Under the pieces are notes generated by a model, which worked only from the letters and a program-made list of their open reading frames with translations, was not told where the DNA came from and made no database searches. A stretch of 64,000 bases of DNA. It comes from an uncultured Oscillospiraceae bacterium (GTDB lineage Bacteria > Bacillota > Clostridia > Oscillospirales > Oscillospiraceae). The position numbers and the translations under genes are program-made. The stretch is from positions 1,828 through 65,827 of the forward strand of contig CAKTVW010000007.1 of NCBI GenBank assembly GCA_934630495.1, written 5' to 3'. How positions within the stretch are numbered: position 1 is the first letter of the stretch; every line of letters begins with the position of its first letter. Below, piece after piece: positions 1,302-48,488 of this stretch.

Positions 1302-1344
1302 CGAAAAAAGCGGCTTTTGGAAGAAAAAATCCTCCAAAAGCCGC
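1302..1344 (-). terminator. Rho-independent terminator downstream of CDS 1589..2308
   Basis: 12-bp stem GCGGCTTTTGGA/TCCAAAAGCCGC (1310-1344), followed on the minus strand by TTTTTTCG. Confidence 0.6.
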
Positions 1345-1588
1345 CTCGAAACGTTGGGGTCGGTAGTTCAAGTCCTCTCAACAAAGAAAAATTTCTTTTT
1401 GGTTGCACAACATGGCGCGTTGCACCAAAAAAGATAACCCAACATTTTTGATTGCCATAGGCAATTAGTCATCCGTAAATTTGAAGTCAAAAAGATACGT
1501 TTTGGCTTATTTTTATCACCGGGTTTACTGATAGAATAATATTATCAAGATATGATCTGTGATCTGTTCGCTGAGAGAAGTACTAATC

Positions 1589-2308
1589 TCACTTCGTGTT
1601 TATACACAATTTGATTATTCCATCTGCAAACTGCTTCGGGACTAGATGCCGACCATTATTAAACATGCCTCCTTTTTGTTTTAATCCATATAACTGTATG
1701 ATTCGTTTAGCGCGTCTTTCAACTCTACGGATATTCTTTTTCTTTGTTTTTGGCGACTTATTCCGAGAGCGGATAGGAGGAAGATAATATTTCAAATCAG
1801 GCGTGCGCTTGAAAGAATACTTCTGAACATCTGTATTAAAAACTTGAAGCGTCTCCAAGTGCGCATTCTTTTGACATAAGTTTATGCCGTTAGGGATGAT
1901 ATTGAGATAGTCTTGATTGGGAATTTGCATTTTTGCGTATCCAACTCCCAAGCATTTCTTTACTGATATACCATACATTTTCCAAAACAATGCGCGGTTA
2001 AGTCGAATCAGTAAGTCTTCGTTTTTATCGGGGGCGATAGTTCTCTTCAATATGTCGTAAAGACGCACAAGAAAGTAACAACAGTTGTCCCCGCTCTCAG
2101 AAAGAGCAGAAATAACTTCACCTGCATTTCGCACTTCGGAAGGAAAGGAGCACTTTGAAAGATACGCAACTATCGCGTCCTCTACACTACCTGTCGAGGG
2201 GTAAATAGCATCTAGCAATTCGTCAATATATTTATCATCTGTTATAAAATCCAATACGGCTTCAACATCCGAAACAAAATTAAAATTACTGGTTGTTTTA
2301 TCTGCCAT
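1589..2308 (-). CDS. Hypothetical protein (orphan, AT-rich cassette cargo)
   Basis: 239-aa ORF, the only long ORF in a visibly AT-rich 1.5-kb stretch. It has its own downstream terminator and a Lys/Arg-rich C-terminal third (KSPKTKKKNIRRVERRAKR). No family recognised. Confidence 0.55.
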   Translation of the reverse strand: MADKTTSNFNFVSDVEAVLDFITDDKYIDELLDAIYPSTGSVEDAIVAYLSKCSFPSEVRNAGEVISALSESGDNCCYFLVRLYDILKRTIAPDKNEDLLIRLNRALFWKMYGISVKKCLGVGYAKMQIPNQDYLNIIPNGINLCQKNAHLETLQVFNTDVQKYSFKRTPDLKYYLPPIRSRNKSPKTKKKNIRRVERRAKRIIQLYGLKQKGGMFNNGRHLVPKQFADGIIKLCINTK

Positions 2309-2612
2309 ACGACGAGCTCCTTTTACTGTAATAATATGCGACTCAGCAGTCTTTCCAAGTCAATTATTATTATACCATTTTTCGACATAATGGCAATACC
2401 ATTTTGCTATGTGATAGTTGAAAAAAAGGAATTTTAAGTAAGATAGTTAGCGAAATTTCCAAAAAAACAAATCTGTATCTGATTATCAAGCCAGATGCAG
2501 ATTATAAATCAAGTATATTCTGTTGCCCACGTTTTCGCAATATAAGAGATTATGGTATTACGTTGCCATGTCAAAGTCCGAAACTGAGAATCTCAAGCAA
2601 CTAACCACTGAT

Positions 2613-2783
2613 CTACTTGGAGAATTCCTCCGGCCAGTAGACCTCCGTTACATAGGCTGACTGTGCGGCGTCCCTGCCTTCGACAGCGTGGATTTCGCCG
2701 AGCTTTGCGAATAGCTCACTCTCGCTGATCGGGAAGCAAATATCGATCTCGTGATCTGCGTTTCTGATTCTTATTTTGATCAT
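2613..2783 (-). pseudogene. Truncated 56-codon N-terminal copy of the ArdA-like gene
   Basis: 2620-2783 is ~91% identical (15 mismatches in 164 nt by eye) to 949-1112. It translates MIKIRIRNADHEIDICFPISESELFAKLGEIHAVEGRD...EVYWPEEFSK, then hits TAG at 2613-2615 exactly where similarity ends. Its ATG overlaps the stop of the upstream gene (ATGA). Confidence 0.6.
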
Positions 2784-3475
2784 TTCTGAGCGTTCCTTTC
2801 CTTATATTGAATGGCGTCCAAACCGAATCTGCAGATCGCCATAGCGTTGCAGATCAGAGCGAACATCTTGGGCGCTACGAGTTCGGTGTCTGCAAGGTCG
2901 CTGATCGTGATGTGCTTTGTCCCGAGATAGAGATCCTTGGCGCAGCAGAGGAGGGTATATCCGTTCTCGGTGCTGCCCTTCGGCTTGAAGCTCTCGAACT
3001 TGATCTCGTTGCGCTCCACGAACTTTCTGATCTGCATCCAGAGCTTGTGCTCGGCAGTCAGCAGGTAGATCGCCGCCAGCAAAGCGAAGTTTTTCTTGTT
3101 GAGTTTCCGGACGGCCTCGTCAAAAGCCAAGCGGTGTTTTTCATCTCTGAAGTTCATAGGTAGTTCCTCACTTTCTCTGATGAATTGATTGAGCCGTCTG
3201 CGAAAGGCGGCGTTGCGGATGTCCTTCATGGTTTCGGACATGACCTCGGATCTACTTGCTGATCCGGCAAGGATTCGTTCCTCGATGCAGGGACAGCTAT
3301 CGGCTGTGCATTTTCTTTTTCCGCGGTAATATGGGCAGTACCTGCAGTCGCACATTTCTGCCGTGTACTCAAAACGGTGAAGCACCATTATGCCGCCTCC
3401 TTGGGGAAGGAATCTTGGGACGGCTGTCATCATCCGTTCTAATGCTCTTTGCTGGGGTGAATCTGAAAAGATCAT
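2780..3475 (-). CDS. Cys-rich hypothetical protein of the kind found in Firmicutes conjugative/integrative elements
   Basis: ORF 2780..3550, trimmed to the ATG at 3475 preceded by AAAGGAG. MIFSDSPQQRALERMM..., with a CDCRYCPYYRGKRKCTADSCPC cluster. It is translationally coupled to the ArdA-like fragment. Confidence 0.5.
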   Translation of the reverse strand: MIFSDSPQQRALERMMTAVPRFLPQGGGIMVLHRFEYTAEMCDCRYCPYYRGKRKCTADSCPCIEERILAGSASRSEVMSETMKDIRNAAFRRRLNQFIRESEELPMNFRDEKHRLAFDEAVRKLNKKNFALLAAIYLLTAEHKLWMQIRKFVERNEIKFESFKPKGSTENGYTLLCCAKDLYLGTKHITISDLADTELVAPKMFALICNAMAICRFGLDAIQYKERNAQK

Positions 3476-3692
3476 TGTCTTACTCCTTTTCTGTGAAATA
3501 AAAAAGAGCCAACCGTTTCTTTTCAAAACGATTGGCTCCGAGGGCAACAAAAATCGGCAGATAGTGCTTGTGACTATCTGCCGTTCTTGTCCTGTATTCT
3601 GTTGTTACTTGGGTTCGTATCTATCTTCAAAGGGAAAAAGCCGATTTTACATCTACGATTTTGACGCTCTGAAAAACGGCATTTAGGCAGCA

Positions 3693-3719
3693 AAAAAGCC
3701 CGATAAAATCGGGCTTTTT
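3693..3719. terminator. Hairpin terminator after tRNA-Gln(CUG), possibly bidirectional
   Basis: AAAAAGCCCGAT-AAA-ATCGGGCTTTTT, with A and T tracts on both sides. Confidence 0.6.
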
Positions 3720-3749
3720 GCGGGGTACATCTTTTTCGTACCCTCTTGA

Positions 3750-3823
3750 TGGCAGGGGATGAGGGATTCGAACCCCCGCAAACGGAGTCAGAGTCCGGTG
3801 TGCTACCGTTACACAAATCCCCT
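3750..3823 (-). tRNA. tRNA-Gln (anticodon CUG), CCA encoded
   Basis: Reverse complement AGGGGAT...ACCGGACTCTGACTCCGT...GGTTCGAATCC...ATCCCCTGCCA. It has a 7-bp acceptor stem and a TPsiC loop, and resembles canonical bacterial tRNA-Gln. The top anticodon-stem pair is a single C:U mismatch. Confidence 0.88.
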
Positions 3824-8702: not shown

Positions 8703-10016
8703 ATGTTAAAAGTTTTGAAATTCGGCGGGACGTCGATGGCAGACGCCGGCCAATACCGCAAGATTCGGGATATCGTCCGCAGCGACCCGTCCCGGAGGGT
8801 GGTGGTCGTGTCCGCCGCCGGCAAACGCTTCGACGGCGACAACAAGATCACCGACCTGCTGTATCTGTGCTACGCGCATCTGCAATACGGCGTGTCCTAC
8901 GACAGCATTTTTGAGATGGTCCGGCAGCGTTATTTTGCCATCCGCGACGAGCTGGGACTGAAAACCGATCTGGAAAAGGAATTTGCCGCGCTTACCGAGC
9001 AAATGAAGAACGGCATTTCCCGCGAAGAGCTGGTTTCGCGCGGCGAATATTTTTCCGCGCTGCTGATGGCGGAATTTTTGGGCTTTCCCTTTATCGACGC
9101 GACGCGCTGGCTGTTCTTCCGCTACGACGGAACGGTCGATCAGGAAAAGTCCTATGCCGCGCTGTCTGCGCTGGTGGGCGATTCCTGCGCGGTCATCCCC
9201 GGCTTCTACGGTCTGATGCCCGACGGCAAAATTCGCACGCTGACCCGCGGCGGCTCGGATATCACGGGCGCATTGGCGGCAGCCGCGCTGGACGCCGACG
9301 TATATGAAAACTGGACGGACGTTTCCGGCATTCTGATGGCCGATCCGCGCATCGTCGATCATCCCAAGACCATCGACCGCGCCACCTACAGCGAGCTGCG
9401 CCAGCTCTCCTACAGCGGCGCGCAGGTCCTACATGAAATGACCGTTTTTCCCGTGCGGGAAAAGAACATACCTCTGAACATCCGCAACACCAACGAGCCG
9501 GACCATCCCGGCACGCTGGTTTCCGAGGAATTTCGCGACGCGCCGAACAATCAGCGCTTCATCACCGGCATCGCCGGCAAGAAGGACTTTTCCATCGTTA
9601 CCATCTCCAAAAAGGGCATGGCCGGGGCAGTCGGAACGCTGCGCGCGATCGTCGAGGTCTTTGAAAAAAACACCGTCCCGATCTGCTATACCCCGACGGG
9701 CATTGACTGCATCTCGCTGGTCGTCCCGACGGAGAAGCTGACGCCGCATCTCTATTCCGTCACCGACGATCTGCGCAAGAGCGTCAGTCCGGACAGCATC
9801 AAGATCACCGACAACATCTCCATTGTCGCCGCCGTCGGCCGCAAAATGGCCTTCCGCGCGGGCACGTCGGGCAAGATCTTCGCGGCGCTGGGGCAGCAGG
9901 GCATCAATATCCGCATGATCTCGCAGGGGCCGGATGAGCTGAACATTCTCGTCGGCGTGGACAACAAGGACTACGCCGCGACCATCCGCGTGCTCTACGA
10001 CGCGTTTGTAAAATGA
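8703..10016 (+). CDS. Aspartate kinase
   Basis: 437 aa. MLKVLKFGGTSMADAG kinase signature and a C-terminal ACT-like region. Confidence 0.88.
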   Translation: MLKVLKFGGTSMADAGQYRKIRDIVRSDPSRRVVVVSAAGKRFDGDNKITDLLYLCYAHLQYGVSYDSIFEMVRQRYFAIRDELGLKTDLEKEFAALTEQMKNGISREELVSRGEYFSALLMAEFLGFPFIDATRWLFFRYDGTVDQEKSYAALSALVGDSCAVIPGFYGLMPDGKIRTLTRGGSDITGALAAAALDADVYENWTDVSGILMADPRIVDHPKTIDRATYSELRQLSYSGAQVLHEMTVFPVREKNIPLNIRNTNEPDHPGTLVSEEFRDAPNNQRFITGIAGKKDFSIVTISKKGMAGAVGTLRAIVEVFEKNTVPICYTPTGIDCISLVVPTEKLTPHLYSVTDDLRKSVSPDSIKITDNISIVAAVGRKMAFRAGTSGKIFAALGQQGINIRMISQGPDELNILVGVDNKDYAATIRVLYDAFVK

Positions 10017-10073
10017 TCCCGAACGGCGGGCAGGACCGCGCCGTTTCGGAAACGCTGTAATGAGGTGAAAATT

Positions 10074-11078
<1,005 letters not shown>

Positions 11079-21413: not shown

Positions 21414-21488
21414 GCGGGTGTAGTATAACGGCTAGTACAACAGCCTTCCAAGCTGTGGGCGTGGGTTCGATTCCCATCACTCGCTCCA
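21414..21488 (+). tRNA. tRNA-Gly (UCC)
   Basis: 75 nt. Cloverleaf with anticodon loop CTTCCAA, GGTTCGATTCC T-arm, and CCA encoded. Confidence 0.9.
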
Positions 21489-21491
21489 TAC

Positions 21492-21568
21492 GCGCCAGTA
21501 GCTCATCCGGATAGAGCAACTGCCTTCTAAGCAGTAGGTGGGGGGTTCGAGTCCCTTCTGGCGTACCA
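21492..21568 (+). tRNA. tRNA-Arg (UCU)
   Basis: 77 nt. Acceptor GCGCCAG/CTGGCGT, anticodon loop CTTCTAA, and CCA encoded. Confidence 0.88.
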
Positions 21569-21611
21569 CCTGCGTCAGCGTCGGTGATTGGCTGATGCTT
21601 TGCGGTACGCC
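21555..21611 (+). repeat. 57-bp direct repeat, copy 1 (last 14 nt of tRNA-Arg plus 43 nt downstream)
   Basis: CTTCTGGCGTACCACCTGCGTCAGCGTCGGTGATTGGCTGATGCTTTGCGGTACGCC, identical to 21699-21755. Confidence 0.9.
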
Positions 21612-21698
21612 CTGATCGAAGTTCGCCTTATGGCTCCTTCTCTCAGGAAGGGACTTTGCGGCGGGAAAAAATGTCACCGGCATCTTTTCCCTTGCAAA

Positions 21699-21755
21699 CT
21701 TCTGGCGTACCACCTGCGTCAGCGTCGGTGATTGGCTGATGCTTTGCGGTACGCC
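21699..21755 (+). repeat. 57-bp direct repeat, copy 2 (orphan tRNA-Arg 3' end)
   Basis: Perfect copy of 21555-21611, lying 87 bp downstream of copy 1. Confidence 0.9.
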
Positions 21756-21850
21756 TTGAAATACCTGATGACGGCAAAGCATCGGCATTGTGCGGTCCGC
21801 CGCACGGCAAAGACGCGCCACAAAAGCGTTTTTGCATGGGAACGAAATAT

Positions 21851-21928
21851 GGTGGGTGTAGCGTAGTTGGTTAACGCGTCAGATTGTGGCTCTGAAGACC
21901 GAGGGTTCGAGTCCCTTCACTCACCCCA
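21851..21928 (+). tRNA. tRNA-His (GUG) with encoded G-1
   Basis: 78 nt. Extra 5' G pairs with C73. Anticodon loop TTGTGGC. Confidence 0.9.
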
Positions 21929-21963
21929 TTTCCCCCCAATCCCTTTATTCGGGGCTGCCACAT

Positions 21964-22038
21964 TGGGATGTCGCCAAGTGGTAAGGCACCAGACTTTGAC
22001 TCTGGCATCCGTAGGTTCGAGTCCTGCCATCCCAGCCA
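21964..22038 (+). tRNA. tRNA-Gln (UUG)
   Basis: 75 nt. TGGGATG...CCAGACTTTGACTCTGG...CATCCCAGCCA. Confidence 0.9.
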
Positions 22039-22041
22039 AGT

Positions 22042-22078
22042 CGGAGCAAAGTCCGCTTTGCTCCGATTTTTATTTTTT
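22042..22078 (+). terminator. Rho-independent terminator of the tRNA cluster
   Basis: CGGAGCAAAG-TCCG-CTTTGCTCCG followed by TTTTTATTTTTT. Confidence 0.7.
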
Positions 22079-22221
22079 GCTATGCAAAAGCATAGCAAAA
22101 TAAGAAATGTGCCGTTTCCTCGTCCCTGCGGGGCATCCGGAAATGATGCACAAAAGCTTCATGCACCGGCATTTGCACTTTTTCGTGGCGCAGCACACAT
22201 GCATGAGGTTTTATGACGTAC

Positions 22222-22297
22222 GACCCGCTAGCTCAGCAGGCAGAGCAATTGCCTTTTAAGCAATGGGTCTGGAGTTCGAATCTCCAGCGGGTCACCA
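22222..22297 (+). tRNA. tRNA-Lys (UUU)
   Basis: 76 nt. Anticodon loop CTTTTAA and acceptor GACCCGC/GCGGGTC. Confidence 0.9.
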
Positions 22298-22299
22298 AT

Positions 22300-22336
22300 C
22301 CTCCGAAAACGCAGCGTTTTCGGAGGATTCTCTTTT
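22300..22336 (+). terminator. Terminator after tRNA-Lys
   Basis: CCTCCGAAAACG-CAG-CGTTTTCGGAGG followed by a T-rich tract. Confidence 0.65.
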
Positions 22337-22440
22337 GTGTATGCACATGCGGCTTCCCCGCGCATCGACTCGGGCACTGCAAAAAACGCCGGTGCCGAGA
22401 ATAACCCCGACCCCGGCGTTTCTTGCGGCGGTCCGCTTTT

Positions 22441-22487
22441 AACCGAAAAGAAATGAGGCTTCGCAGCGTCTGCTGTGAAGCCTCATT
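22441..22487 (-). terminator. Terminator after tRNA-Trp
   Basis: 11-bp stem AATGAGGCTTC/GAAGCCTCATT, followed on the minus strand by TTCTTTTCGGTT. Confidence 0.6.
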
Positions 22488-22489
22488 CT

Positions 22490-22565
<76 letters not shown>

Positions 22566-22580
22566 ATATTAAAAATAAAA

Positions 22581-22657
22581 TGGTGGGCCTTCGGGGACTC
22601 GAACCCGGGACCGTCCGGTTATGAGCCGGATGCTCTAACCAACTGAGCTAAAGGCCC
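22581..22657 (-). tRNA. tRNA with CAU anticodon, most like lysidine-type tRNA-Ile2 (elongator Met not excluded)
   Basis: 77 nt. GGGCCTTTAGCTCAGTTGGTTAGAGC...GGCTCATAACC... resembles Firmicutes tRNA-Ile(CAU). It lacks initiator features: the 1:72 pair is intact and there is no triple G-C in the anticodon stem. Confidence 0.75.
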
Positions 22658-28065: not shown

Positions 28066-28572
28066 ATGTATCAGATCGACGAATTGGTCTCCTACGGCAC
28101 GGAAGGCGTATGCCGGGTCGCGGAGCTGTGTGAAATGAAGATCAGCGGCCGACGCGGACAGTACTATGTTCTCAAGCCGATATTCCGCGAGAGCGCGACC
28201 GTTTATGTTCCGCTTGACAATCCGTGCCTGCTGGCGCGGATGCGGAGACTTCATTCGATCGCCGAGATCGACACGATCCTGCAGGATGCCGCCGAGCTGC
28301 CCCTCCGATGGATCGACGATGCCAACGAGCGCCGTCAGGAATACGGCAGGCTGCTGACCGCAAACGACAGCGCTCAGATCGTGCGTCTGATCCGTCTGCT
28401 GTATCTGCGCAGGCAGGAGCTGGAAGCAGCCGGAAAGCATCTGCGCTCAAACGACGAGCAGCTCCTGCACGAAGCGGAAAAGCTCATCCATGACGAGCTG
28501 TCCGTCGTTCTGCAAATTCCCCGTCAGGACGTACCGGCGTACATCCGCAGCCGCGTTGAGGCAACGGCTTGA
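28066..28572 (+). CDS. CarD/CdnL-family RNA-polymerase-binding regulator
   Basis: Trimmed to MYQIDELVSYGTEGVCRVAEL...YYVLKPIFRESATVYVPLDN (CarD_CdnL_TRCF N-domain). Confidence 0.75.
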   Translation: MYQIDELVSYGTEGVCRVAELCEMKISGRRGQYYVLKPIFRESATVYVPLDNPCLLARMRRLHSIAEIDTILQDAAELPLRWIDDANERRQEYGRLLTANDSAQIVRLIRLLYLRRQELEAAGKHLRSNDEQLLHEAEKLIHDELSVVLQIPRQDVPAYIRSRVEATA

Positions 28573-28689
28573 CCGAACGCCTTTCTTCATAGGCCCGCGT
28601 TGCATAAACGGAAGCTCCCCGATCTTTGGTGGATCGAGGAGCTTTTTGGTTCGGCAGAACGCCGTGATTCTCTGTATTATACTGATCTT

Positions 28690-28840
28690 ATACTAGAATC
28701 TGTTAAAAAGCTTGAAAAGCTTTTTATAGCGCCAAGGGCGCGTCAGATTCTGCATGAGACGGCGCAGCGTGCTTTCGCACGATGCGAGTGTGCGTAGCAC
28801 ACGGGATTCTTGATTAAATCTTTTAATCAAGAATCAGTAT
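28690..28840 (-). repeat. 151-bp structured dispersed repeat, copy A (inverted relative to B and C)
   Basis: The reverse complement is 151/151 identical to 40233-40383 and 46349-46499. Intergenic, between the convergent carD-like and argF genes. Confidence 0.95.
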
Positions 28841-28850
28841 TAATTTCGTA

Positions 28851-29834
28851 TCACAATGTGGCGGCAAGGACGGCCTTGATGGTGTGCATCCGATTTTCCG
28901 CTTCGTCAAAGACAATGGACTGCTTGCTTTCAAAGACCTCGTCCGTGACCTCCAGCGCGTCAAGCTTGAACTTTTCGCCGATCTGACGGCCGATGCCGGT
29001 ATTGAGATCATGGAAAGCGGGCAGGCAGTGCATAAATACGGCATGTTCTCCCGCGTTGCGCATCAGCTTTGCGGTGACCTGATAGGGCAGCATCTTGTTG
29101 ATGCGCTCCTCCCACGCCTCCATCGGTTCGCCCATGGAGACCCACACGTCGGTGTAGATCACGTCGGCGCCCTCGGTGGCCTTCATCGGATCTGTCTCAA
29201 AGGCCAGCGTCGCGCCTGTCTGCGCGGCGATTTCCTCGCAGCGGGCGATCAGCTCGGCGTTGGGGAAATAGCCCTCGGGGCCGCAGGCGACAAAGTGCAG
29301 GCCGAGCTTTGCGCAGCCGATCATCAGGGAATTTGCCATGTTATAGCGGCAGTCGCCCATGAACACGAGCTTTCTGCCCCTGAGAGAGCCGAAATGCTCG
29401 CGGATCGTCAGCATATCCGCAAGGATCTGCGTGGGATGATATTCGTTGGTCAGGCCGTTCCAGACGGGAACACCCGCATATTTGGCCAGCTCCTCGACGA
29501 TGCTCTGACCGAAGCCGCGATACTCGATGCCGTCATAGAGACGCCCGAGGACCCGCGCGGTATCGGCGATGGATTCCTTCTTGCCGATCTGAGAGCCGGT
29601 CGGGTCGAGATAAGTGACGTGCATTCCGAGGTCATAGGCCGCCACCTCGAACGAGCAGCGGGTGCGGGTGGAGGTCTTTTCAAAAATCAGTGCGATGCTC
29701 TTGCCCTTGTAGTCGTCATGCGCGATACCGGCCTTTTTCTTCGCCTTCAGTTCGGCGGCGAGATCCAGCAGACCGGTGATCTCCTCGGGCGTGAAGTCCA
29801 GCAGCGTTAAAAAGTTTTTGCCTTTCAGATTCAT
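28851..29834 (-). CDS. argF: Ornithine carbamoyltransferase
   Basis: Trimmed to [18 protein letters not shown]. Carbamoyl-phosphate motif STRTR and HCLPAFH. Adjacent to argD. Confidence 0.88.
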
Positions 29835-36225: not shown

Positions 36226-36255
36226 AAGCGCCGTCCTCAAGCGAGGACGGCGCTT
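36226..36255. repeat. 30-bp terminator hairpin, left copy of a flanking direct duplication
   Basis: AAGCGCCGTCCTCAAGCGAGGACGGCGCTT, identical to 36507-36536. Confidence 0.9.
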
Positions 36256-36506
36256 CAGCGTGTCGAAAAACCCTTTTCGACACGCTGGCAGGCTGCAAAA
36301 AAGTTCGGAAGACAAGCAACTCACGCCTGTCGGCGTACTAAAGTACGGCAGGGCGTGAGTTGCGCAGTAAGTCAAAATCCTTGCGAAACAAGCAGATTTC
36401 GCATTATATAGTTCGGAATATTCCATTTTTGTAAATCAAAACGCTTAAGCAAAATTCATTAAATAGTTAACTGATTTTGACGATTCCGGACTTTTTTGAC
36501 AGTCTG
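36256..36506. mobile_element. MITE-like non-coding element, copy 1 (TIR-delimited core 36289-36506)
   Basis: Imperfect terminal inverted repeats CAGGCTGCAAAAAAGTTCGGAA / (rc) CAGACTGTCAAAAAAGTCCGGAA. Long internal hairpin GCAACTCACGCC...GGCGTGAGTTGC. Homologous to 57515-57758. Confidence 0.7.
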
Positions 36507-36536
36507 AAGCGCCGTCCTCAAGCGAGGACGGCGCTT
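36507..36536. repeat. 30-bp terminator hairpin, right copy (followed by a T-run)
   Basis: Identical to 36226-36255 and followed by ATTTTTCTC. Confidence 0.9.
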
Positions 36537-39762: not shown

Positions 39763-40116
39763 ATGGCAAGAATTAAAGGCGCGATGATGACGCGCAAGAG
39801 AAGAAATAAGACTCTGAAGCTCGCAAAGTCCTACTGGGGTTCCAAGTCCACCCACTTCAAGATGGCGAAGCAGGCCGTCAAGAAGTCCGGCGTTTACGCA
39901 TACATCGGCCGCAAGCAGAAGAAGCGCGACTTCCGCCGTCTGTGGATCGCCCGTATCTCCGCAGCCGTGAAGCCCTACGACATGAACTACTCCCGTTTCA
40001 TGAACGGTCTGAAGAAGGCCGGTATCGAAATGAACCGCAAGAGCCTGTCGGAAATGGCGATCAACGATGCCGCCGCATTCGGCGCACTGGTCGAAACCGC
40101 CAAGAAGGCACTGTAA
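39763..40116 (+). CDS. rplT: 50S ribosomal protein L20
   Basis: 117 aa, [16 protein letters not shown]... Confidence 0.92.
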
Positions 40117-40169: not shown

Positions 40170-40232
40170 TGCGCTGTTTTCGCTTCTGCAATAATAAAAG
40201 AGCCTGCCGACGGTGAAGTGCGGCAGACTCTT

Positions 40233-40383
40233 ATACTGATTCTTGATTAAAAGATTTAATCAAGAATCCCGTGTGCTACGCACACTCGCATCGTGCGAAA
40301 GCACGCTGCGCCGTCTCATGCAGAATCTGACGCGCCCTTGGCGCTATAAAAAGCTTTTCAAGCTTTTTAACAGATTCTAGTAT
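40233..40383 (+). repeat. 151-bp structured dispersed repeat, copy B
   Basis: Identical to 46349-46499 and to the reverse complement of 28690-28840. Confidence 0.95.
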
Positions 40384-40404
40384 TATTATTCAGATAAGAG
40401 AGGC

Positions 40405-41661
40405 TTATTCTCTTCGCAGGGCGTCGATCGGATTCAGCTTCGAGGCCTTGACTGCCGGGAAGAAGCCGAACACAAGGCCGATCAGCACCGAGAACAGCGT
40501 TGCGGCAAAAATCGCGGGAACGCTGATTGCCGTCGGCGTATCGGCAAACTTGGAGATCAGCTCCGAAAGTCCGATGCCGCCCAGAACGCCCAGCACGCCG
40601 CCGATGCCCGTCAGGACGGCCGCCTCGGTCAGAAACTGCGCAAGAATGCGGCGGCGCTTCGCGCCGATCGCCTTTTTCAGGCCGATCTCACCGGTACGCT
40701 CCGTGACGGTCACCAGCATGATGTTCATAACGCCGACGCCGCCGACCGCCAGAGAGATCATGGCGATCCAGATAAGCTGACGGTTGGTCGCGCTGCTCAT
40801 CTCCTGAAGCTGTTCGGCCTGCTTGAGAAGGTCGTTGTTGCGATAGCTGAAGCCGTCCTTGGAGGACTTTTCCGCGATCTGATGCTCGGTCAGGTAATCG
40901 GCGACCGCCTTGCCTGCCGTCGTCATCTCGTCCGTCGAAGCGGTCCGCACGCAAACGCTCTGCGGCTCGTCAAAGCGGAACGGAATTGCCCACGCCGAAT
41001 CGGGAAGGAAGATCTTTCCGCTGTTGTTGACCGCGTAGGAGGCATAATCCTGAATGGAATTGATGACCGGCTTGAAATTTCTCGACAGCGCCGCCACGCC
41101 GATCACGCAATAGGCGTCCTGCTGCAGCTCGATCGTCTTGCCGATGGGGTTTTCCGTGCCGAAGGCCGCCTTTGCCGCCGTTTCGTCAAGAATGACATTC
41201 TTGCGGCAGTTGGCATAGTCCTGCGCGTTGAAATCGCGGCCAAGCTTGATCTGGTAGCCGTTCACGGAAAAGAAGCTGTCGTCAATACCGTAGACCGCGC
41301 CGCTGATGGACGCGTCCTGATAATAGGCGTTCGCGGAATCGCGCATCCGATAGAGGCTGACGTCCTCGACGCCGTCGAGCTTGCGCATCTCGTCGCGCTG
41401 CTTGGGATCGATCACCTTGACGCCGACCGGGATGGAATTGTAGGACATTTCATAGGTGCTGTCATTCTGATAGAGCTGCACCGTCACCACGTTGTTGCCC
41501 GCGCCGATCAGGTTTTCCTTGATCTGCTCATTGGTGCCCTTGATGGTGGAAATGATCGTGATAATGGAGGCAATGCCGATAATAATGCCCAGCATCGTCA
41601 GGAAGGAACGCAGCTTGTGCGTAAAAATGCCCTGAAAGGCCTGCGATATACTTTCAAACAC
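40405..41661 (-). CDS. ABC transporter permease, MacB/FtsX type
   Basis: Probable GTG start at 41661, 6 nt after AGGAGG. FtsX-like C-terminal TM bundle and a large extracytoplasmic loop. Confidence 0.8.
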   Translation of the reverse strand: MFESISQAFQGIFTHKLRSFLTMLGIIIGIASIITIISTIKGTNEQIKENLIGAGNNVVTVQLYQNDSTYEMSYNSIPVGVKVIDPKQRDEMRKLDGVEDVSLYRMRDSANAYYQDASISGAVYGIDDSFFSVNGYQIKLGRDFNAQDYANCRKNVILDETAAKAAFGTENPIGKTIELQQDAYCVIGVAALSRNFKPVINSIQDYASYAVNNSGKIFLPDSAWAIPFRFDEPQSVCVRTASTDEMTTAGKAVADYLTEHQIAEKSSKDGFSYRNNDLLKQAEQLQEMSSATNRQLIWIAMISLAVGGVGVMNIMLVTVTERTGEIGLKKAIGAKRRRILAQFLTEAAVLTGIGGVLGVLGGIGLSELISKFADTPTAISVPAIFAATLFSVLIGLVFGFFPAVKASKLNPIDALRRE

Positions 41662-41675
41662 CGTGCTTCCTCCTC

Positions 41676-43292
41676 TCAATAAGACGCCTTATTGGTAAAC
41701 TCTTCCGCGTCGGTCTCAACGGTCTTTGCGCCGTCCTTGACCTCCTTGCCGTAGGGGAACGCGACCCAGTCGTCCTCGGTCAGTCCGCTGTAGATCGCCG
41801 TATACTCTCCCCAGAGGATCGCGCCCGTCTTGACATAGGTCTTGACCAGCGTTCCGTCCTCACCGCGCTTATAGACATAGGCACGGCCGTTTTCGCTGCG
41901 GATGAACATATTGTTCAGATACATTGCCGACTCCGTCGCGCCGCTTTGCATGACCACGCTGACATAGCTGTCCTCGACAAGCTGCGCATCGGCCGGGACC
42001 GCAACGACCGCATTATAGAGCGTTACATTCGGGTTGCCGTTTCCGTTATAGTAGCCGTTGACCGGTGTATCGGAAATCGATTCGATCGTGCCCTCGACCG
42101 TAGTCGAGCCGCTCATCCACGACTCGACGGTGACCGGCGTGCCGAGCGGCAGCGTCTCGCGTTCAAATTCGCCGATGGCGATGTTGACATAGTAGCAGCC
42201 GCCGCCGGAAACGGTCAGGAAGGCGCTCCCCTCACTGCGGGCGGTATCGGCATCGACCAGACGCGTCACCGTGCCGTCCACCTTGGAATAAAGCGTGCCG
42301 TTGGAGGCCTCTGCCTCCATGCGCTCCGCCTCGACCTGCTCCATGCGGTAGGTAAGCTCCAGATCACGGATCTCCTTCTGCTTTTCGTTGCGCATCTGCG
42401 CGATCTCCGCGGCGGTATAGCCGGAGCTGTCGTCGACCCACGGATCGGGATCGACACCGGGCTTGTCATTGTTATTATCGTCGTCGGGCATATCCTCCGG
42501 CGTGAAGAACGAATAGACCAGCGTCCTGACGGTCGTCGGCTCCTGCGTCGGCTCCGTCGGTTCGGCGGGATCGGCAGGCTCCTGCGTCGGCTCGGTCGGG
42601 TCGATCACCGTCGTCCGGACCGTCACACGCAGGCCCCACCGGCTGATAAGCTCCGCGTTCAGCGCGTTCTGCTCGCGGATTTCGAAGGCAAAATATGCCT
42701 CATCGGCATCCTTGAGGTACTGCATGAGAAACGCTTCGTCATACGTCAGCTCTTCCGACCACAGGAAGCGGTACGGACTCTCCTGCGTACCCTTGCCACC
42801 CATAAAATAGGGAAGCTCCTCGATCGGCTCCGGCTTTTCCGTAGGCGGCTCCGTCGGCGGGACCGTCACGGGGGGCGGCGTGTAGGGCTTCATGGCGTTG
42901 ATTTTCGCCAATTCCTTTTTTGCCTGCTCCACGCTGAGCTTCGCCTGCTGGACCTTGATCTTCTGCCGTTCGAGCTGGATGTCGGAAAGCGTCGTGTCGT
43001 AGCGAAGCAGCGCGTCGCCCTTTTTGACCGTCTGGCCCTCGGTGACCAGCACCTCCGTCACCGTCTGCGTATTGCTGAGGTAAACGGATTGCAGATTATC
43101 GGCCGTGACGCGGCCGTCGTAATACCGGCCGCCGTCATAATAGCCCGTCGTAAAGTTCGATACCCGCGTCACCTTGACCGGGTCGGTGTTGCGTCCGACG
43201 GCCCAGACGATGCCGACCACGATCGCCGCGACCAGCACCAGGCTGACGGCGCTGATGATAACGGCCTTGATTCCCTTACGCATCCTCGCCAC
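41676..43292 (-). CDS. HlyD/MacA-type membrane-fusion (adaptor) protein 2
   Basis: 538 aa. N-terminal TM anchor, lipoyl-like VTEGQTVKKGDALLRYD and a coiled coil. The start is ambiguous (GTG at 43292 or ATG at 43283). Confidence 0.75.
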   Translation of the reverse strand: MARMRKGIKAVIISAVSLVLVAAIVVGIVWAVGRNTDPVKVTRVSNFTTGYYDGGRYYDGRVTADNLQSVYLSNTQTVTEVLVTEGQTVKKGDALLRYDTTLSDIQLERQKIKVQQAKLSVEQAKKELAKINAMKPYTPPPVTVPPTEPPTEKPEPIEELPYFMGGKGTQESPYRFLWSEELTYDEAFLMQYLKDADEAYFAFEIREQNALNAELISRWGLRVTVRTTVIDPTEPTQEPADPAEPTEPTQEPTTVRTLVYSFFTPEDMPDDDNNNDKPGVDPDPWVDDSSGYTAAEIAQMRNEKQKEIRDLELTYRMEQVEAERMEAEASNGTLYSKVDGTVTRLVDADTARSEGSAFLTVSGGGCYYVNIAIGEFERETLPLGTPVTVESWMSGSTTVEGTIESISDTPVNGYYNGNGNPNVTLYNAVVAVPADAQLVEDSYVSVVMQSGATESAMYLNNMFIRSENGRAYVYKRGEDGTLVKTYVKTGAILWGEYTAIYSGLTEDDWVAFPYGKEVKDGAKTVETDAEEFTNKASY

Positions 43293-45400: not shown

Positions 45401-46228
45401 TCAGGGATTCCCCAAAATTTCGGCGACCGTCGGCTCCAGCTCGGACGTGTCCAGCTCCTCGGCGCGGCCGCTGTCGCAGGCCTCCGCAACGGTGGGGTCG
45501 ATCGGCAGGCGGGCCAGCACGGGAAGATGGTACTCCTCCGCGATCCTTGCAAGGTGGCTCTCGCCGAAGACCGCGTGGCGCTTCCCGCAGTCCGGGCAGC
45601 GGAAATAGCTGTAGTTCTCCACCACGCCCAGAACGGGCACCTGCATCATATTCGCCATTTTCACGGCCTTGGAGACGATCACGGAGACCAGCTCCTGCGG
45701 GGTCGTAACGATAATGATACCGTCGACGGGGAGGGACTGAAACACCGTCAGCGGCACGTCGCCCGTTCCGGGAGGCATATCCACAAACAGGCAGTCCACA
45801 TCCTGCCACACCACGTCCGTCCAGAACTGCTTGACCGCGCCCGCAATAACGGGGCCGCGCCAGAGAACGGGGTCGTCCTCATGATCCAGCAGCAGATTGA
45901 TCGACATGATCTGAATGCCGCTCTTACTGAGAGCCGGGTAAATTCCTTCCTCGTCCGCACCGGCACACTCGCAGACGCCGAAGGCTCTGGGAATCGACGG
46001 GCCTGTGATATCCGCGTCGAGGATCGCTGTGCGCTTCCCGCTCTTCTGCACGGCTGCGGCCAGCATAGAGGTGACCGTGCTCTTGCCGACGCCGCCCTTG
46101 CCCGATACGACGGCAATGACCTTTTTGACCTTGGAACGCTCGTTCAGCTCCGCAAGCAGGCTTTCCGGCTTGCGCTCGGCGCAGCTTTCGCCGCAGGATG
46201 AGCAATTCCCGCTGCATTGTTCGCTCAT
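45401..46228 (-). CDS. Mrp/NBP35-family Fe-S cluster carrier ATPase
   Basis: Trimmed to MSEQCSGNCSSCGESC. Deviant Walker A SGKGGVGKST and a C-terminal CPDC motif. Confidence 0.8.
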   Translation of the reverse strand: MSEQCSGNCSSCGESCAERKPESLLAELNERSKVKKVIAVVSGKGGVGKSTVTSMLAAAVQKSGKRTAILDADITGPSIPRAFGVCECAGADEEGIYPALSKSGIQIMSINLLLDHEDDPVLWRGPVIAGAVKQFWTDVVWQDVDCLFVDMPPGTGDVPLTVFQSLPVDGIIIVTTPQELVSVIVSKAVKMANMMQVPVLGVVENYSYFRCPDCGKRHAVFGESHLARIAEEYHLPVLARLPIDPTVAEACDSGRAEELDTSELEPTVAEILGNP

Positions 46229-46348
46229 GTTGTTACTTCCTTTCCAGCACAATGTTGCATCCGGATCGCATCATGGCGGACAGTCCTTACGATCATCCTA
46301 CCATTCAAATTTTTAAGAATCAATCCGGTAAAGCTTAAGATTTGTTTA

Positions 46349-46499
46349 ATACTGATTCTTGATTAAAAGATTTAATCAAGAATCCCGTGTGCTACGCACA
46401 CTCGCATCGTGCGAAAGCACGCTGCGCCGTCTCATGCAGAATCTGACGCGCCCTTGGCGCTATAAAAAGCTTTTCAAGCTTTTTAACAGATTCTAGTAT
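46349..46499 (+). repeat. 151-bp structured dispersed repeat, copy C
   Basis: Identical to 40233-40383. Lies between the mrp start and the ABC-F gene end. Confidence 0.95.
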
Positions 46500-46604
46500 A
46501 ATACCAAAAACAATTCATGTTTTCATCAGGGTTCGGTATGGGGCTTCGTGATAAGCGGAGTATAGCAAGGTTATTATCGTTTGTCAATAAATATTTTCCG
46601 TTTT

Positions 46605-48488
46605 TCATTGTAACTGTGCGGCTTCCAGCGCCTCCGACGCCGCTTCCCACTGCGTCATCAGGCCGTCCAGCGCGGTCTGTTCGGACTCGCGCTGCTCCGT
46701 CAGGCGCAGCAGCTCCTGATAATCGCTCGCCGCCTCGCCCAGTGCTTTGTCAATGGCCGCGATCTCCTCCTCCTTCGCCGCGATGTCGCGCTCCAGACGG
46801 CGAACGGTCTTTTCCGCATCCTTGCTGCCGGTCGAACGGGGCGCTTTTTCTTTTTTCGCGGCGGGCGCTTTCTGCCGCTGCATCGCCTCATGCTCCAGAA
46901 TGGAGCGGTACTTGGCGTAGCCGCAGGGGAAATCGCGGATCGTGCCGTCCTGCAGCTCCCAGATGCGCGTAGCGAACTTATCCACAAAATAGCGGTCGTG
47001 GGAGACAAAGATCAGCGTCCCCTCAAATTCGTCGATCGCGCATTCCACCCACTCGCGCGAAGCCACGTCGAGATGGTTCGTCGGCTCGTCGAGGATCAGC
47101 AGATTGATCTTTTCGTCCATGAGCATACACAGCCGCAGGCGCGACTGCTCTCCGCCCGAGAGCGTACCGACCGTCTTAAACACGTCCTCGCCCGAAAACA
47201 GGAACGCGCCCAGACGGTCGCGCGCGGTCTGCGGGGTGCAGTTCTTCTCATAGAGCATCGTGTCGTAAAGCGTGCGCTCCGGGTGCTCAAAATGGATCAC
47301 CTGCGGCAGATACGCCCATTTGACGGACGGGCCGAACTTCACCGTTCCCTCGCCCGCCAGCTCGCCCAGCAGCAGCCTGATAAACGTCGTCTTTCCCGTT
47401 CCGTTGTCTCCCAGCAGGGCGATCCGCTCGCCGCCGCGCACCTTCAGCTCGATCCCGGAGAACAGCGTGCGGTCGCCGAAGCGCTTGCCGAGATTCTTTA
47501 CCGACAGCACCTCGTCTCCGTGGAACTCCTTCTCGCCGAAGCGGGCGCGGAGCGTCTTTTCCTTTGTCGGCCGCTCGGTCTTTTCGATGCGCTCCATGCG
47601 GTGCTGAATGGACATCGCGCGGCGGTAGAGCACGCGGTTATTGATGCCCCAGCCCTTCATGCGCTCAACGGTGAAGCCGAGCTGCCTGAGCTTCGCCTGC
47701 TCCTGCTCATATTGTTTAAGCTGGCGGTTAAAGCGCTCCTGCTTCTCCTGCAGATAGAATGTGTAGTTTCCGCTGTAAAAATCCGCTTTTCCGCCCGTGA
47801 TCTCAATGATCCGTCCGACAACGCGGTCAAGAAAATAGCGGTCGTGGGAAATGGTCAGGACCGTTCCCTTGAATTTTTTGATATATTCCTCCAGCCACTC
47901 CACGCTCCGCAGATCGAGATGGTTCGTCGGCTCGTCGAGGAGCAGGATATCCGTCCGCTCAAGCAGCAGACGCGCCAGATTCACGCGCGTTTTTTCGCCG
48001 CCCGAAAGGCGGTCAAACTCCTGCGTGCGCATAGCCTGCGGGATTCCGAGGCCGTTGCACACCTTGTCGATATTGGTGTCCTGCTCGTAGCCGCCGCCGA
48101 CAAGATAGGCGTTCGTCAGGCGGTCGTACTCCTCCAAAAGGCTCTTCGGTGCGCTGCCCGTCAGCCGTTCGGCAAGCGCCTCCGCCTTTTGACGGATCGC
48201 CTCCAGCTTGGCGAAGGCCGTGCGCAGGACATTCTCGACCGTATAACCGGCCGGGTAGTGCGGGATCTGCGAGATCAGCCCCAGGCGCTTGCCCGGGGCG
48301 ATATAAACCTCTCCCTCATCCGGCGCAAGCTCTCCCGTGAGGATGCGGAACAGCGTCGTCTTCCCGCAGCCGTTTCGCCCCATGATGCCCACGCATTCTC
48401 CCGCGTGGATCTCAAAGCTCAGGCCGTCGAGCAGCGTCGTGCCCACCTCAAAGGACTTGACCAGATCCTTTACTGCAATTTCAACCAT
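46605..48488 (-). CDS. ABC-F family ATPase (two NBDs, no TM domain, C-terminal coiled coil)
   Basis: 627 aa. Two Walker A sites (GRNGCGKTT, GDNGTGKTT) and two LSGGE signatures. Confidence 0.85.
   Translation of the reverse strand: MVEIAVKDLVKSFEVGTTLLDGLSFEIHAGECVGIMGRNGCGKTTLFRILTGELAPDEGEVYIAPGKRLGLISQIPHYPAGYTVENVLRTAFAKLEAIRQKAEALAERLTGSAPKSLLEEYDRLTNAYLVGGGYEQDTNIDKVCNGLGIPQAMRTQEFDRLSGGEKTRVNLARLLLERTDILLLDEPTNHLDLRSVEWLEEYIKKFKGTVLTISHDRYFLDRVVGRIIEITGGKADFYSGNYTFYLQEKQERFNRQLKQYEQEQAKLRQLGFTVERMKGWGINNRVLYRRAMSIQHRMERIEKTERPTKEKTLRARFGEKEFHGDEVLSVKNLGKRFGDRTLFSGIELKVRGGERIALLGDNGTGKTTFIRLLLGELAGEGTVKFGPSVKWAYLPQVIHFEHPERTLYDTMLYEKNCTPQTARDRLGAFLFSGEDVFKTVGTLSGGEQSRLRLCMLMDEKINLLILDEPTNHLDVASREWVECAIDEFEGTLIFVSHDRYFVDKFATRIWELQDGTIRDFPCGYAKYRSILEHEAMQRQKAPAAKKEKAPRSTGSKDAEKTVRRLERDIAAKEEEIAAIDKALGEAASDYQELLRLTEQRESEQTALDGLMTQWEAASEALEAAQLQ

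What the first reader, a model, noticed from the sequence alone, without database searches (positions are those of the whole stretch)
28690..28840. 151-bp, almost fully hairpin-forming element in three 100% identical intergenic copies
28690-28840 (inverted), 40233-40383 and 46349-46499 are identical at all 151 positions by manual comparison.

Structure, in the B/C orientation:
- A 13-bp stem ATTCTTGATTAAA-AGA-TTTAATCAAGAAT.
- GTGTGC-TAC-GCACAC.
- CGTGC-GAAA-GCACG, a GNRA tetraloop, extendable to about 9 bp.
- GCGCC-CTT-GGCGC.
- AAAAGCTT-TTC-AAGCTTTT.
- A long-range pairing, CAGAATCTG with CAGATTCT, enclosing the last two hairpins.

The termini are a perfect 5-bp inverted repeat (ATACT...AGTAT), imperfectly extendable to about 12 bp. 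Every copy can be read as flanked by TA on both sides. The element carries no ORF.

Perfect identity of three copies within 18 kb argues for very recent mobilisation or gene conversion. The multi-hairpin architecture with a GNRA loop also fits a structured RNA, or a recognition site for a trans-acting transposase or recombinase. I do not recognise it as any named RNA family or MITE.
Basis: seen in the sequence. Interest (0 to 1): 0.7.

Follow-up and report, generated by a model that had tools for sequence, protein, structure and literature searches.

The report
Hairpin-rich miniature transposon in gut Clostridia
The three identical 151-base repeats are copies of a small non-coding jumping element (a MITE) found in many gut Oscillospiraceae genomes; it inserts at T-N-A sites and duplicates those three bases, so it is a new family of an ordinary kind of mobile DNA, not a new RNA gene.

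Summary
The three 151-mers are identical, fold almost entirely into hairpins and match no Rfam family.

[quoted passage not shown] The element proper is 149 bp (TACTGATTC...TCTAGTA). The outer A and T of the "151-mer" belong to a 3-bp target-site duplication, T-N-A, not TA.
- **Duplication.** Across 65 distinct insertion sites, 61 carry the same TNA on both sides, with N being any base. About 20 would match by chance.
- **Mobility.** Strains with an identical L20 protein have a clean empty site downstream of rplT. It is exactly 152 bp (149+3) shorter than the filled site.
- **Spread.** At least 98 stretches in 34 species-level Oscillospiraceae assemblies, plus gut metagenomes. Copies often sit at contig ends.
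- **Structure.** The hairpins covary strongly between subfamilies. Copy-private mutations, however, hit stems as often as loops and are never compensated. There is no orientation bias, and the "GNRA" loop is not conserved. The constraint therefore acts on the propagating lineage, not on resident copies as RNAs.
- **Transposase.** None was found. An IS5/PIF-Harbinger-type DDE enzyme is inferred from the TNA duplication alone.

This is a new member of a known kind, of modest interest.

The parts
28691..28839 (-). MITE copy A, element proper (149 bp). It lies between the 3' ends of the ornithine carbamoyltransferase gene (28851-29834, -) and a CarD-like gene (28066-28572, +), 11 nt after the OTCase stop codon.
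28840..28842 (-). Target-site duplication of copy A, left copy (reads TAA on the - strand).
28688..28690 (-). Target-site duplication of copy A, right copy (TAA on the - strand).
40234..40382 (+). MITE copy B, element proper. It lies between rplT (39763-40116, +) with its terminators and the 3' end of a MacB/FtsX permease gene (40405-41679, -). This copy is polymorphic among strains.
40231..40233 (+). Target-site duplication of copy B, left copy (TTA).
   Evidence: the empty site in L103 reads ...GGCTC TTA TTATTCAG...
40383..40385 (+). Target-site duplication of copy B, right copy (TTA).
   Evidence: the filled site is 152 bp (149+3) longer than the empty one.
46350..46498 (+). MITE copy C, element proper. 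It lies between the 3' end of an ABC-F ATPase gene (46605-48488, -) and the 5' end of an Mrp/ParA-type ATPase gene (45401-46228, -).
46347..46349 (+). Target-site duplication of copy C, left copy (TAA).
46499..46501 (+). Target-site duplication of copy C, right copy (TAA).
40234..40251 (+). Left terminal repeat TACTGATTCTTGATTAAA. With its inverted internal copy (40254-40268) it forms hairpin 1. 39-bp mini elements elsewhere consist of just this repeat, a loop and its perfect inverse.
40271..40310 (+). Hairpins 2 (GTGTGC-TAC-GCACAC) and 3 (GCATCGTGC-GAAA-GCACGCTGC). The stems covary between subfamilies; the loop is not conserved.
40322..40382 (+). Right module. The internal arm CAGAATCTG pairs with the subterminal CAGATTCT and encloses hairpins 4 and 5. 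It ends in the degenerate right terminal repeat ...CAGATTCTAGTA. The long-range helix shows 6 of 8 pairs with compensatory changes.

Best explanation
The repeat is a non-autonomous DNA transposon (MITE) of a family spread through gut Oscillospiraceae. The unit is 149 bp and non-coding, ending in TACT...AGTA. It has an ~18-bp left terminal repeat (TACTGATTCTTGATTAAA) and a degenerate inverted counterpart at the right end.

A transposase encoded elsewhere binds the ends and excises the element. It pastes the element into a T-N-A trinucleotide (preferred context TC-TNA-AA) by a 3-nt staggered cut, and repair of that cut duplicates TNA.

**Shown here**
- The duplication.
- Its independence from N.
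- A clean empty site.
- Nested insertions.
- The multicopy, multi-species distribution.
- Within-genome homogeneity.

**Inferred**
- The enzyme is a DDE transposase, most likely of the IS5 (IS1031-like) / PIF-Harbinger superfamily, because 3-bp TNA duplications are its signature.
- The hairpin architecture is maintained because only well-folding or palindromic copies go on to found new copies. Resident copies decay neutrally.

The three identical window copies reflect a recent burst in this species. They sit in 3' intergenic regions, between stop codons and terminators, where insertion is tolerated.

The confidence of 0.85 is for 'MITE with a 3-bp TNA duplication, mobilised in trans'. The IS5/PIF family assignment alone would be about 0.5.
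For: **Identity and rarity**
- Three identical copies.

**Distribution**
- At least 98 stretches in 34 assemblies, all Oscillospiraceae/Clostridiales. The scan was truncated, and many hits lie about 100-140 bp from contig ends.
- 38 more stretches in gut metagenomes.

**Target-site duplication**
- 44 of 46 copies, and 61 of 65 distinct sites, have the same TNA on both sides: TAA 24, TGA 21, TCA 10, TTA 6.
- About 20 matches are expected if N were independent on the two sides.

**Empty site**
- Contigs encoding the identical L20 protein read ...GGCTC-TTA-TTATTCAG.
- The window and L100 read ...CTC-TTA-[149 bp]-TTA-TTATTCAG. The length difference is 152 = 149+3.

**Nested insertion**
- In L001 one copy, with a TCA duplication, sits inside the GTC-TCA-TAC of another.

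**Bursts**
- Mean identity is 96% within a genome against 84% between genomes.

**Placement**
- Convergent intergenic 18, tandem 20, divergent 4. About a quarter of copies use the neighbouring gene's stop codon as the TNA.

**Structure evolves at lineage level**
- 17 pairs and 105 cells have double changes; 0 of 500 shuffles reach this.
- RNAalifold finds the same helices.
- The 33 copy-private stem mutations are never compensated, and they occur at the same per-column rate as in unpaired columns.

**Literature**
- 3-bp, TNA-type duplications typify the PIF/Harbinger/IS5 superfamily (PMC4482050).
- The IS1031 group recognises three nucleotides (PMC2516522).
Against: - **No autonomous partner.** No transposase gene bounded by these ends was found in the window, in about 1 Mb of fetched loci, or in plasmid, phage or viral collections.
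- **Weak right-end repeat.** The right end is only loosely similar to the left repeat and differs between subfamilies. It always pairs with an internal segment, which a simple 'two identical TIRs' model does not predict.
- **Termini.** They start TAC, unlike the GG/GA ends I recall for IS5-family elements (own knowledge).
- **Other families.** IS3 and IS30 families also make 3-bp duplications (own knowledge), so the family assignment is weak.
- **Ascertainment.** The left-end invariance is an artefact of the scan pattern, which required it.
- **Mini forms.** Five 39-bp palindromic mini forms mostly do not show matching TNA flanks.
Confidence: 0.85

Rival explanations
1. The element is, or has become, a functional structured RNA. 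It would be a small RNA gene or a 3'-UTR module that stabilises or terminates the neighbouring transcripts, and its hairpins would be conserved for that RNA function.
For: - Very stable fold on either strand.
- Strong covariation in six helices.
- All three window copies lie between a stop codon and the terminator, or next to a 3' end, so they are probably co-transcribed.
- The family is enriched in convergent and 3' intergenic regions.
Against: - No Rfam match.
- No promoter-like or terminator-like site inside the element.
- Orientation relative to transcription is random, 9 co-oriented against 11 anti-oriented.
- The tetraloop is not conserved as GNRA.
- No excess of G-U-compatible pairs on the proposed strand.
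- Private mutations in resident copies break stems at the neutral rate and are never compensated.
- The target-site duplication, the empty site and the nested copies show that it spreads as DNA.
Confidence: 0.07
2. The element moves by a structure-dependent, single-strand mechanism, as IS200/IS605-derived palindrome-associated elements or REP/RAYT systems do. A HUH enzyme would recognise the subterminal hairpins rather than linear inverted repeats.
For: - Both ends are embedded in hairpins, four bases from the tip.
- The right end varies in sequence but keeps its pairing partner.
- Structural constraint acts on the propagating lineage.
Against: - HUH 'peel and paste' elements insert next to a fixed tetra- or pentanucleotide and make no duplication (own knowledge of IS608/ISDra2).
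- Here a 3-bp duplication with variable N is seen at 61 of 65 sites, and the empty site is exactly 149+3 bp shorter.
- The flanking target preference (TC-TNA-AA) is partly symmetric.
- Perfect 18-bp inverted terminal repeats exist in the mini forms.
Confidence: 0.05
3. The three copies result from a local triplication, or from gene conversion of a fixed repeat, with no transposition.
For: Perfect identity of three copies within 18 kb.
Against: - The flanks are unrelated.
- Each copy has its own TNA duplication.
- Hundreds of dispersed copies exist in many species.
- Copy B is absent, with a clean site, in strains with the same L20 protein.
Confidence: 0.01

Closest known systems
Tourist-like MITEs and IS5-family (IS1031-group) / PIF-Harbinger derivatives
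   Same: - Small non-coding element with terminal inverted repeats.
- 3-bp duplication of a T-N-A/TWA target (PMC4482050, PMC2516522).
- Bursts of near-identical copies.
   Different: - No parent element or transposase found.
- Termini TACT...AGTA rather than the GG/GA ends I recall for IS5-family elements.
- The right repeat is degenerate.
- The interior is a chain of covarying hairpins.
- The host is a Gram-positive gut anaerobe.
Correia elements (Neisseria), RUP (pneumococcus), ERIC (enterobacteria)
   Same: - 100-150-bp intergenic repeats.
- Fold into long hairpins.
- Co-transcribed with neighbours.
- Insert at A/T-rich short targets.
(Own knowledge.)
   Different: - Correia and RUP duplicate TA, 2 bp. 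That was tested here and not met.
- No sequence similarity.
- A different bacterial group.
bcr1 repeats of the Bacillus cereus group
   Same: About 150-bp mobile intergenic repeat of a Firmicute, with a predicted conserved secondary structure supported by compensatory changes (own knowledge).
   Different: - bcr1 duplicates TTTAT, 5 bp (own knowledge); here the duplication is TNA.
- The sequences are unrelated.
REP/BIME elements with RAYT transposases
   Same: GC-rich hairpin modules in 3' intergenic regions, with a mosaic, modular organisation.
   Different: REP elements make no target duplication and use a HUH enzyme. Here there is a 3-bp duplication and terminal inverted repeats.

Membership tests
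MITE (generic) | Short (<~300 bp) and non-coding | tested here: met
   The element is 149 bp, and family members range from 39 to 169 bp. The unit is too short to encode a transposase.
MITE (generic) | Terminal inverted repeats | tested here: met
   TACT...AGTA is invariant. There is a perfect 18-bp pair in the mini forms, and an imperfect pair of roughly 15 of 21 by eye in the 149-bp form, better in the ...TCAAGAACTAGTA subfamily.
MITE (generic) | Target-site duplication of fixed length | tested here: met
   61 of 65 distinct sites have the same TNA on both sides, against about 20 expected by chance. The empty site is 149+3 bp shorter.
MITE (generic) | Multicopy, dispersed, with insertion polymorphism | tested here: met
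   At least 98 stretches in 34 assemblies. Filled and empty alleles exist at rplT. A nested copy is seen in L001.
MITE (generic) | Autonomous partner element with matching ends | tested here: inconclusive
   None found in the window, in about 1 Mb of loci, or in the plasmid, phage and viral collections. Whole host genomes could not be searched.
IS5 / PIF-Harbinger-derived (Tourist-like) MITE | 3-bp duplication of TNA/TWA | tested here: met
   literature.
IS5 / PIF-Harbinger-derived (Tourist-like) MITE | Ends homologous to those of a transposon that encodes a DDE transposase of that superfamily | not testable with these tools
   No parent was identified and no IS-end database is available.
IS630 / Tc1-mariner-derived MITE (Stowaway-like, RUP, Correia-like) | TA dinucleotide duplication | tested here: not met
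   A TA reading would require the target itself to contain TNA-TA-TNA with equal N. The empty site shows a single TTA added, with a length difference of 152 rather than 151.
IS200/IS605-derived palindrome-associated element or REP | No target duplication; insertion 3' of a fixed short motif | tested here: not met
   A variable-N duplication is present on both sides.
Described RNA family (Rfam 15) | Score at or above a family's gathering threshold | tested here: not met
   No hit at the element. The best sub-threshold hit is 28.3 bits against 58.8.
Structured functional RNA (undescribed) | Structure conserved in resident copies, strand-specific, with orientation tied to transcription | tested here: not met
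   Private stem mutations are uncompensated and occur at the neutral rate. Orientation is 9 against 11. There are 10 G-T against 30 A-C cells. The loop is not conserved.

The most novel reading that the evidence does not exclude
The hairpin architecture may itself be the recognition signal for mobility. Folded as a single strand or cruciform, TACT pairs with AGTA, while hairpin 1 and the long-range helix stack on either side. That brings both ends and both TNA copies together.

A transposase that reads this folded junction rather than a linear repeat would explain three things:
- why the right end can change sequence as long as its internal partner changes with it;
- why only lineage-founding copies keep the fold;
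- why an element with such unequal ends still transposes with a precise 3-bp duplication.

This would be a structure-guided DDE-type system in bacteria.
Probability: 0.12. Interest if true: 0.6.

Novelty: new member of a known kind. Interest (0 to 1): 0.3.

Why it matters
- **Annotation and assembly.** It names and delimits an abundant repeat that breaks assemblies of gut Oscillospiraceae, a poorly cultured and medically studied group. Many contigs end inside it. The exact boundaries (149 bp plus TNA) can be used for masking and annotation, and for strain typing by insertion polymorphism, for example at the rplT site.
- **Mobile-element biology.** It is a bacterial, Tourist-like TNA-duplicating MITE whose internal hairpins covary at the lineage level while resident copies decay. 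This is a clean case for asking what a MITE needs, beyond its tips, in order to be mobilised.
- **What it is not.** It does not open a new class of element or RNA.

Tried and rejected
**Database matches**
- Rfam at gathering and permissive thresholds: nothing.
- BLAST of the element against plasmid and phage collections: nothing.
- BLAST of a 45-nt mini element at E<=10 against plasmids: chance hits only.
- Literature search for the terminal sequence, and for MITEs in these taxa: nothing.

**Search for the autonomous parent**
- Paired ends with a matching TNA 250-6000 bp apart in the loci and the window gave only a 265-bp variant.
- A generic TNA-plus-inverted-repeat search gave two weak chance pairs.
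- A relaxed TAC/GTA search gave one candidate in L117, which lies inside a 1376-aa ORF, so it is chance.
- A metagenome scan for the left repeat not followed by hairpin 1 returned only MITE variants with longer loops or other insertions.
- A viral scan for the bare 18-mer gave chance hits in low-GC phages.
- Clustering of about 2200 ORFs from all loci found only orthologues, no multicopy transposase.
- The low-GC island at window 1-3750 has two ORFs with no Pfam match.

**Other dead ends**
- An orthologous 'empty' site for an L040 copy in the window (9764-10281) was too diverged in the spacer to read the junction.
- The look-up of encoding contigs failed until start codons were corrected (then 72, 73).
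- All strains found carry copies A and C, so only copy B yielded an empty site.

**Interpretations rejected**
- TA duplication.
- GNRA-based RNA motif.
- IS200/IS605-type mechanism.
- Local triplication.

Full report
**1. Observation**

Reading the three places directly shows 151 identical bases at 28690-28840 (reverse strand), 40233-40383 and 46349-46499, with unrelated flanks (BLAST E=3.7e-76 each). A sensitive self-BLAST, a profile search and a mismatch-tolerant search for the ends find no fourth copy in the window. The element is AT-rich for its setting, 43.7% GC against 58.1%.

| Folded as | MFE (kcal/mol) | z-score |
|---|---|---|
| RNA, given strand | -62.9 | -8.0 |
| RNA, opposite strand | -62.3 | -6.7 |
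| DNA | -45.4 | -9.0 |

No shuffle does as well. No Rfam family matches at its gathering score, and the best permissive hit (ar14, 28 bits against 58.8) is noise.

**2. It is a widespread family**

One viral-collection contig (L001) held a copy 85% identical in which hairpin stems had changed on both sides.

- They come from 34 assemblies.
- All are titled Oscillospiraceae, Clostridiales or Bacillota gut bacteria. They include the isolates Faecousia intestinalis, Brotocaccenecus cirricatena, a Pseudoflavonifractor and Oscillibacter sp. CAG:241.
- One MAG alone contributes 21 loci.
- Many matches lie about 100-140 bp from a contig end, the mark of a repeat that breaks short-read assemblies.
- 43 full-length copies are 73-97% identical to the window copy.
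- A metagenome scan added 38 stretches, several from contigs titled human gut metagenome.

Copies are much more alike within a genome (mean 96%, median 98%) than between genomes (84%). The window's 100% identity is the extreme of a general pattern of species-specific bursts.

**3. Boundaries and target duplication**

Aligning the flanks of all copies shows that the base before the '151-mer' always equals the base after it. The next base out is always T on the left and A on the right. Counting the first A and the last T as flank, each copy is bracketed by the same trinucleotide T-N-A.

This holds for 44 of 46 copies and, after adding the metagenome loci and collapsing orthologous sites, for 61 of 65 distinct insertion sites:

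| Trinucleotide | Sites |
|---|---|
| TAA | 24 |
| TGA | 21 |
| TCA | 10 |
| TTA | 6 |

About 20 matches would be expected if the two N's were independent. The preferred context is TC-TNA-AA.

The element proper is therefore 149 bp, TACTGATTC...GATTCTAGTA. The window copies have TAA, TTA and TAA. It would require the uninterrupted target to be TNA-TA-TNA with equal N.

**4. Proof of mobility**

The L20 protein next to copy B is encoded, residue for residue, on many metagenome contigs.
- L100 has the same filled site as the window.
- L103 and L102 lack the element. L103 reads ...GGCTC-TTA-TTATTCAG... where the window reads ...CTC-TTA-[149 bp]-TTA-TTATTCAG...
- The rplT-to-permease spacer is 137 bp against 289 bp, a difference of 152 = 149+3. 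This is a clean empty site with one copy of the trinucleotide.

In L001 one copy, with a TCA duplication, sits inside the GTC-TCA-TAC of another family member. Copies A and C are present in every strain retrieved.

**5. Anatomy and subfamilies**

- **Left end.** TACTGATTCYTGATTAAA, followed after a 3-7-nt loop by its inverse lacking the TACT. Hairpin 1 is therefore a terminal repeat plus an internal inverted copy.
- **Mini elements.** 39-bp elements made only of this repeat, a loop and its perfect inverse occur in several genomes.
- **Right module.** It has the same logic. An internal arm (CAGAATCTG) pairs with the subterminal CAGATTCT and encloses hairpins 4 and 5. The tip is AGTA.
- **Subfamilies.** They differ at the right end, and the internal arm changes in step each time:
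  - ...CAGATTCTAGTA
  - ...TCAAGAACTAGTA
  - ...CAGGTTTTGGTA
  - ...TAAGTTTTAGTA
- **Inverted repeat quality.** The ...TCAAGAACTAGTA form is the closest to an inverted copy of the left end.
- **Caveat.** The invariance of the left end in my set is an ascertainment artefact of the scan pattern. One secondary copy (L094) shows a diverged left end with compensated hairpin 1.

**6. What the covariation means**

On 44 distinct copies the six helices are 96.7% paired. 17 of 52 pairs and 105 cells show changes on both sides. No shuffle of 500 reaches this, and slid controls collapse to 29-44% paired. RNAalifold independently finds the same helices plus the TACT:AGTA closing pair. The structure is real and conserved.

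Four tests argue that it is not conserved as a resident functional RNA:
- **Loop.** The 'GNRA' loop is GAAA only in some lineages. Elsewhere it is GAAT, GAAC, TAAC, TCAC or TGGC.
- **Wobble pairs.** G-T pairs, tolerated in RNA of the given strand, are rarer than A-C pairs: 10 against 30 cells.
- **Orientation.** In tandem gene contexts the element is co-oriented 9 times and anti-oriented 11 times.
- **Private mutations.** Variants private to one copy occur at the same rate in paired and unpaired columns (0.32 against 0.25 per column). All 33 in stems are uncompensated: 28 broken, 5 wobble, 0 Watson-Crick. Variants shared by lineages are half as frequent in stems as in loops, and where both sides of a pair have changed the pair is kept.

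Resident copies therefore decay neutrally, and the constraint acts on whichever copies seed new ones. The simplest reading is that the palindromic architecture matters for being mobilised, or is inherited from terminal-repeat modules. It does not appear to matter for a host function at each locus.

**7. Genomic setting**

In the window:
- Copy A lies 11 nt after the OTCase stop codon, before the shared terminator with a CarD-like gene.
- Copy B lies between the MacB-type permease stop codon and its terminator, just beyond the rplT terminators.
- Copy C lies between the ABC-F gene's 3' end and the Mrp/ParA gene's start.

With heuristic gene calls across the family, 18 copies are in convergent spacers, 20 in tandem spacers and only 4 in divergent spacers. 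In 11 of 42 cases the TNA is the neighbouring gene's own stop codon, which the duplication regenerates. This is the usual pattern of tolerated insertion downstream of genes. The copies are probably co-transcribed, in either orientation, and may incidentally stabilise 3' ends. That was not tested.

**8. Mechanism and family**

A fixed 3-bp duplication with a variable middle base, a clean empty site and terminal inverted repeats indicate cut-and-paste by a transposase that makes 3-nt staggered cuts.

Three-base TNA/TWA duplications are the signature of the PIF/Harbinger-IS5 superfamily (PMC4482050). The IS1031 group of IS5 recognises three nucleotides (PMC2516522). I therefore infer an IS5/PIF-like DDE enzyme supplied in trans.

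This step is inference only.
- No element with these ends and a transposase gene was found.
- IS3 and IS30 families can also give 3-bp duplications (own knowledge).
- HUH-type hairpin-dependent transposition (IS200/IS605, REP/RAYT) is disfavoured, because those systems make no duplication.

**9. Novelty and verdict**

I found no description of this family. There was no Rfam, plasmid or phage match, no paper containing the terminal sequence, and none on MITEs in these genera.

It is a new family of a well-known kind of element. It resembles Tourist-like MITEs in its duplication and Correia, ERIC or bcr1 repeats in its size, placement and folding, but it shares sequence with none of them. Interest is modest.

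The least ordinary features are two:
- the lineage-level conservation of a fold that juxtaposes the two ends;
- a right end that co-evolves with an internal partner rather than with the left end.

These leave open, at low probability, a structure-guided recognition mode.

Noticed in passing
window 36226-36536 (element 36256-36506, - strand; duplicated hairpin at 36226-36255 and 36507-36536); second copy at window 57520-57757: A different 251-bp non-coding repeat (CAGACTGTCAAAAAAGTCCGGAATCG...TTTTTCGACACGCTG) is flanked by a perfect 30-bp direct duplication of an intrinsic-terminator hairpin (AAGCGCCGTCCTCGCTTGAGGACGGCGCTT).

The same family is inserted elsewhere:
- Right after hairpin 1 of the MITE at the copy-A site in other strains (L145, L147, L149), duplicating the 33-bp hairpin.
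- At the rplT terminator in L104/L105, duplicating about 30 bp of that hairpin.

It also truncates MITE copies after hairpins 1, 3 and 5 (L040, L072, L054, L019). This looks like a hairpin-seeking mobile element with a ~30-bp duplication. That length recalls the IS1202 group (own knowledge, untested). It may be more unusual than the finding itself.
   Followed up: partly
L012:75-214 region, L057, L062, L126, L134, L140 (none in the window): A second MITE family of about 135 bp, with ends GGGAAGCTCTGATT...AATCAGAGGTTCCC, is inserted into the CTAG at the right tip of the studied element or into TTAA in its first loop. The studied element in turn inserts into the TGA of that family's end (flanks ...GGGAACCTC-TGA). 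The two families nest in each other.
   Followed up: partly
L079:60-115, L084:945-1000, L032:1400-1416: A related mini-palindrome family has ends TACCAATCACCAATT...AATTGGTGATTGGTA, the same TAC...GTA tips. It lies next to or is fused with copies of the studied element, which suggests a wider group of elements served by related enzymes.
   Followed up: no
L032:1360-1398, L056:587-625, L071:4165-4203, L074:3350-3388, L084:904-942, L110, L128, L129: 39-45-bp perfectly palindromic mini forms consist of the left repeat, a loop and its inverse. Most do not show matching TNA on both sides. In L071 and L129 the palindrome extends into the flanks (TGA...TCA plus the ends of the second MITE), as if made by fold-back copying rather than by transposition.
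   Followed up: partly
family-wide; e.g. L090:4901, L015:1117, L043:5996, L002:1588: In 11 of 42 copies with callable neighbours, the duplicated TNA is the stop codon (TAA/TGA) of the adjacent gene. The insertion lands exactly on the stop and regenerates it.
   Followed up: partly
window 1-3750: A low-GC island (40-50% against 58%) abuts a tRNA gene (3753-3823, -). It carries two ORFs (1589-2308 -, 2780-3550 -) with no Pfam match, and is possibly the remnant of an integrated element.
   Followed up: partly
window 21414-22657 and 56701-56825: A cluster of seven tRNA genes on both strands, and a ribosomal protein L10 leader (RF00557). These are ordinary features and are unrelated to the finding.
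   Followed up: no
L001 (IMGVR_UViG_3300030444_000187): This 4-kb contig is filed as viral. It carries nested copies of the element directly upstream of an ABC-transporter ATPase gene and looks like ordinary bacterial chromosome.
   Followed up: no
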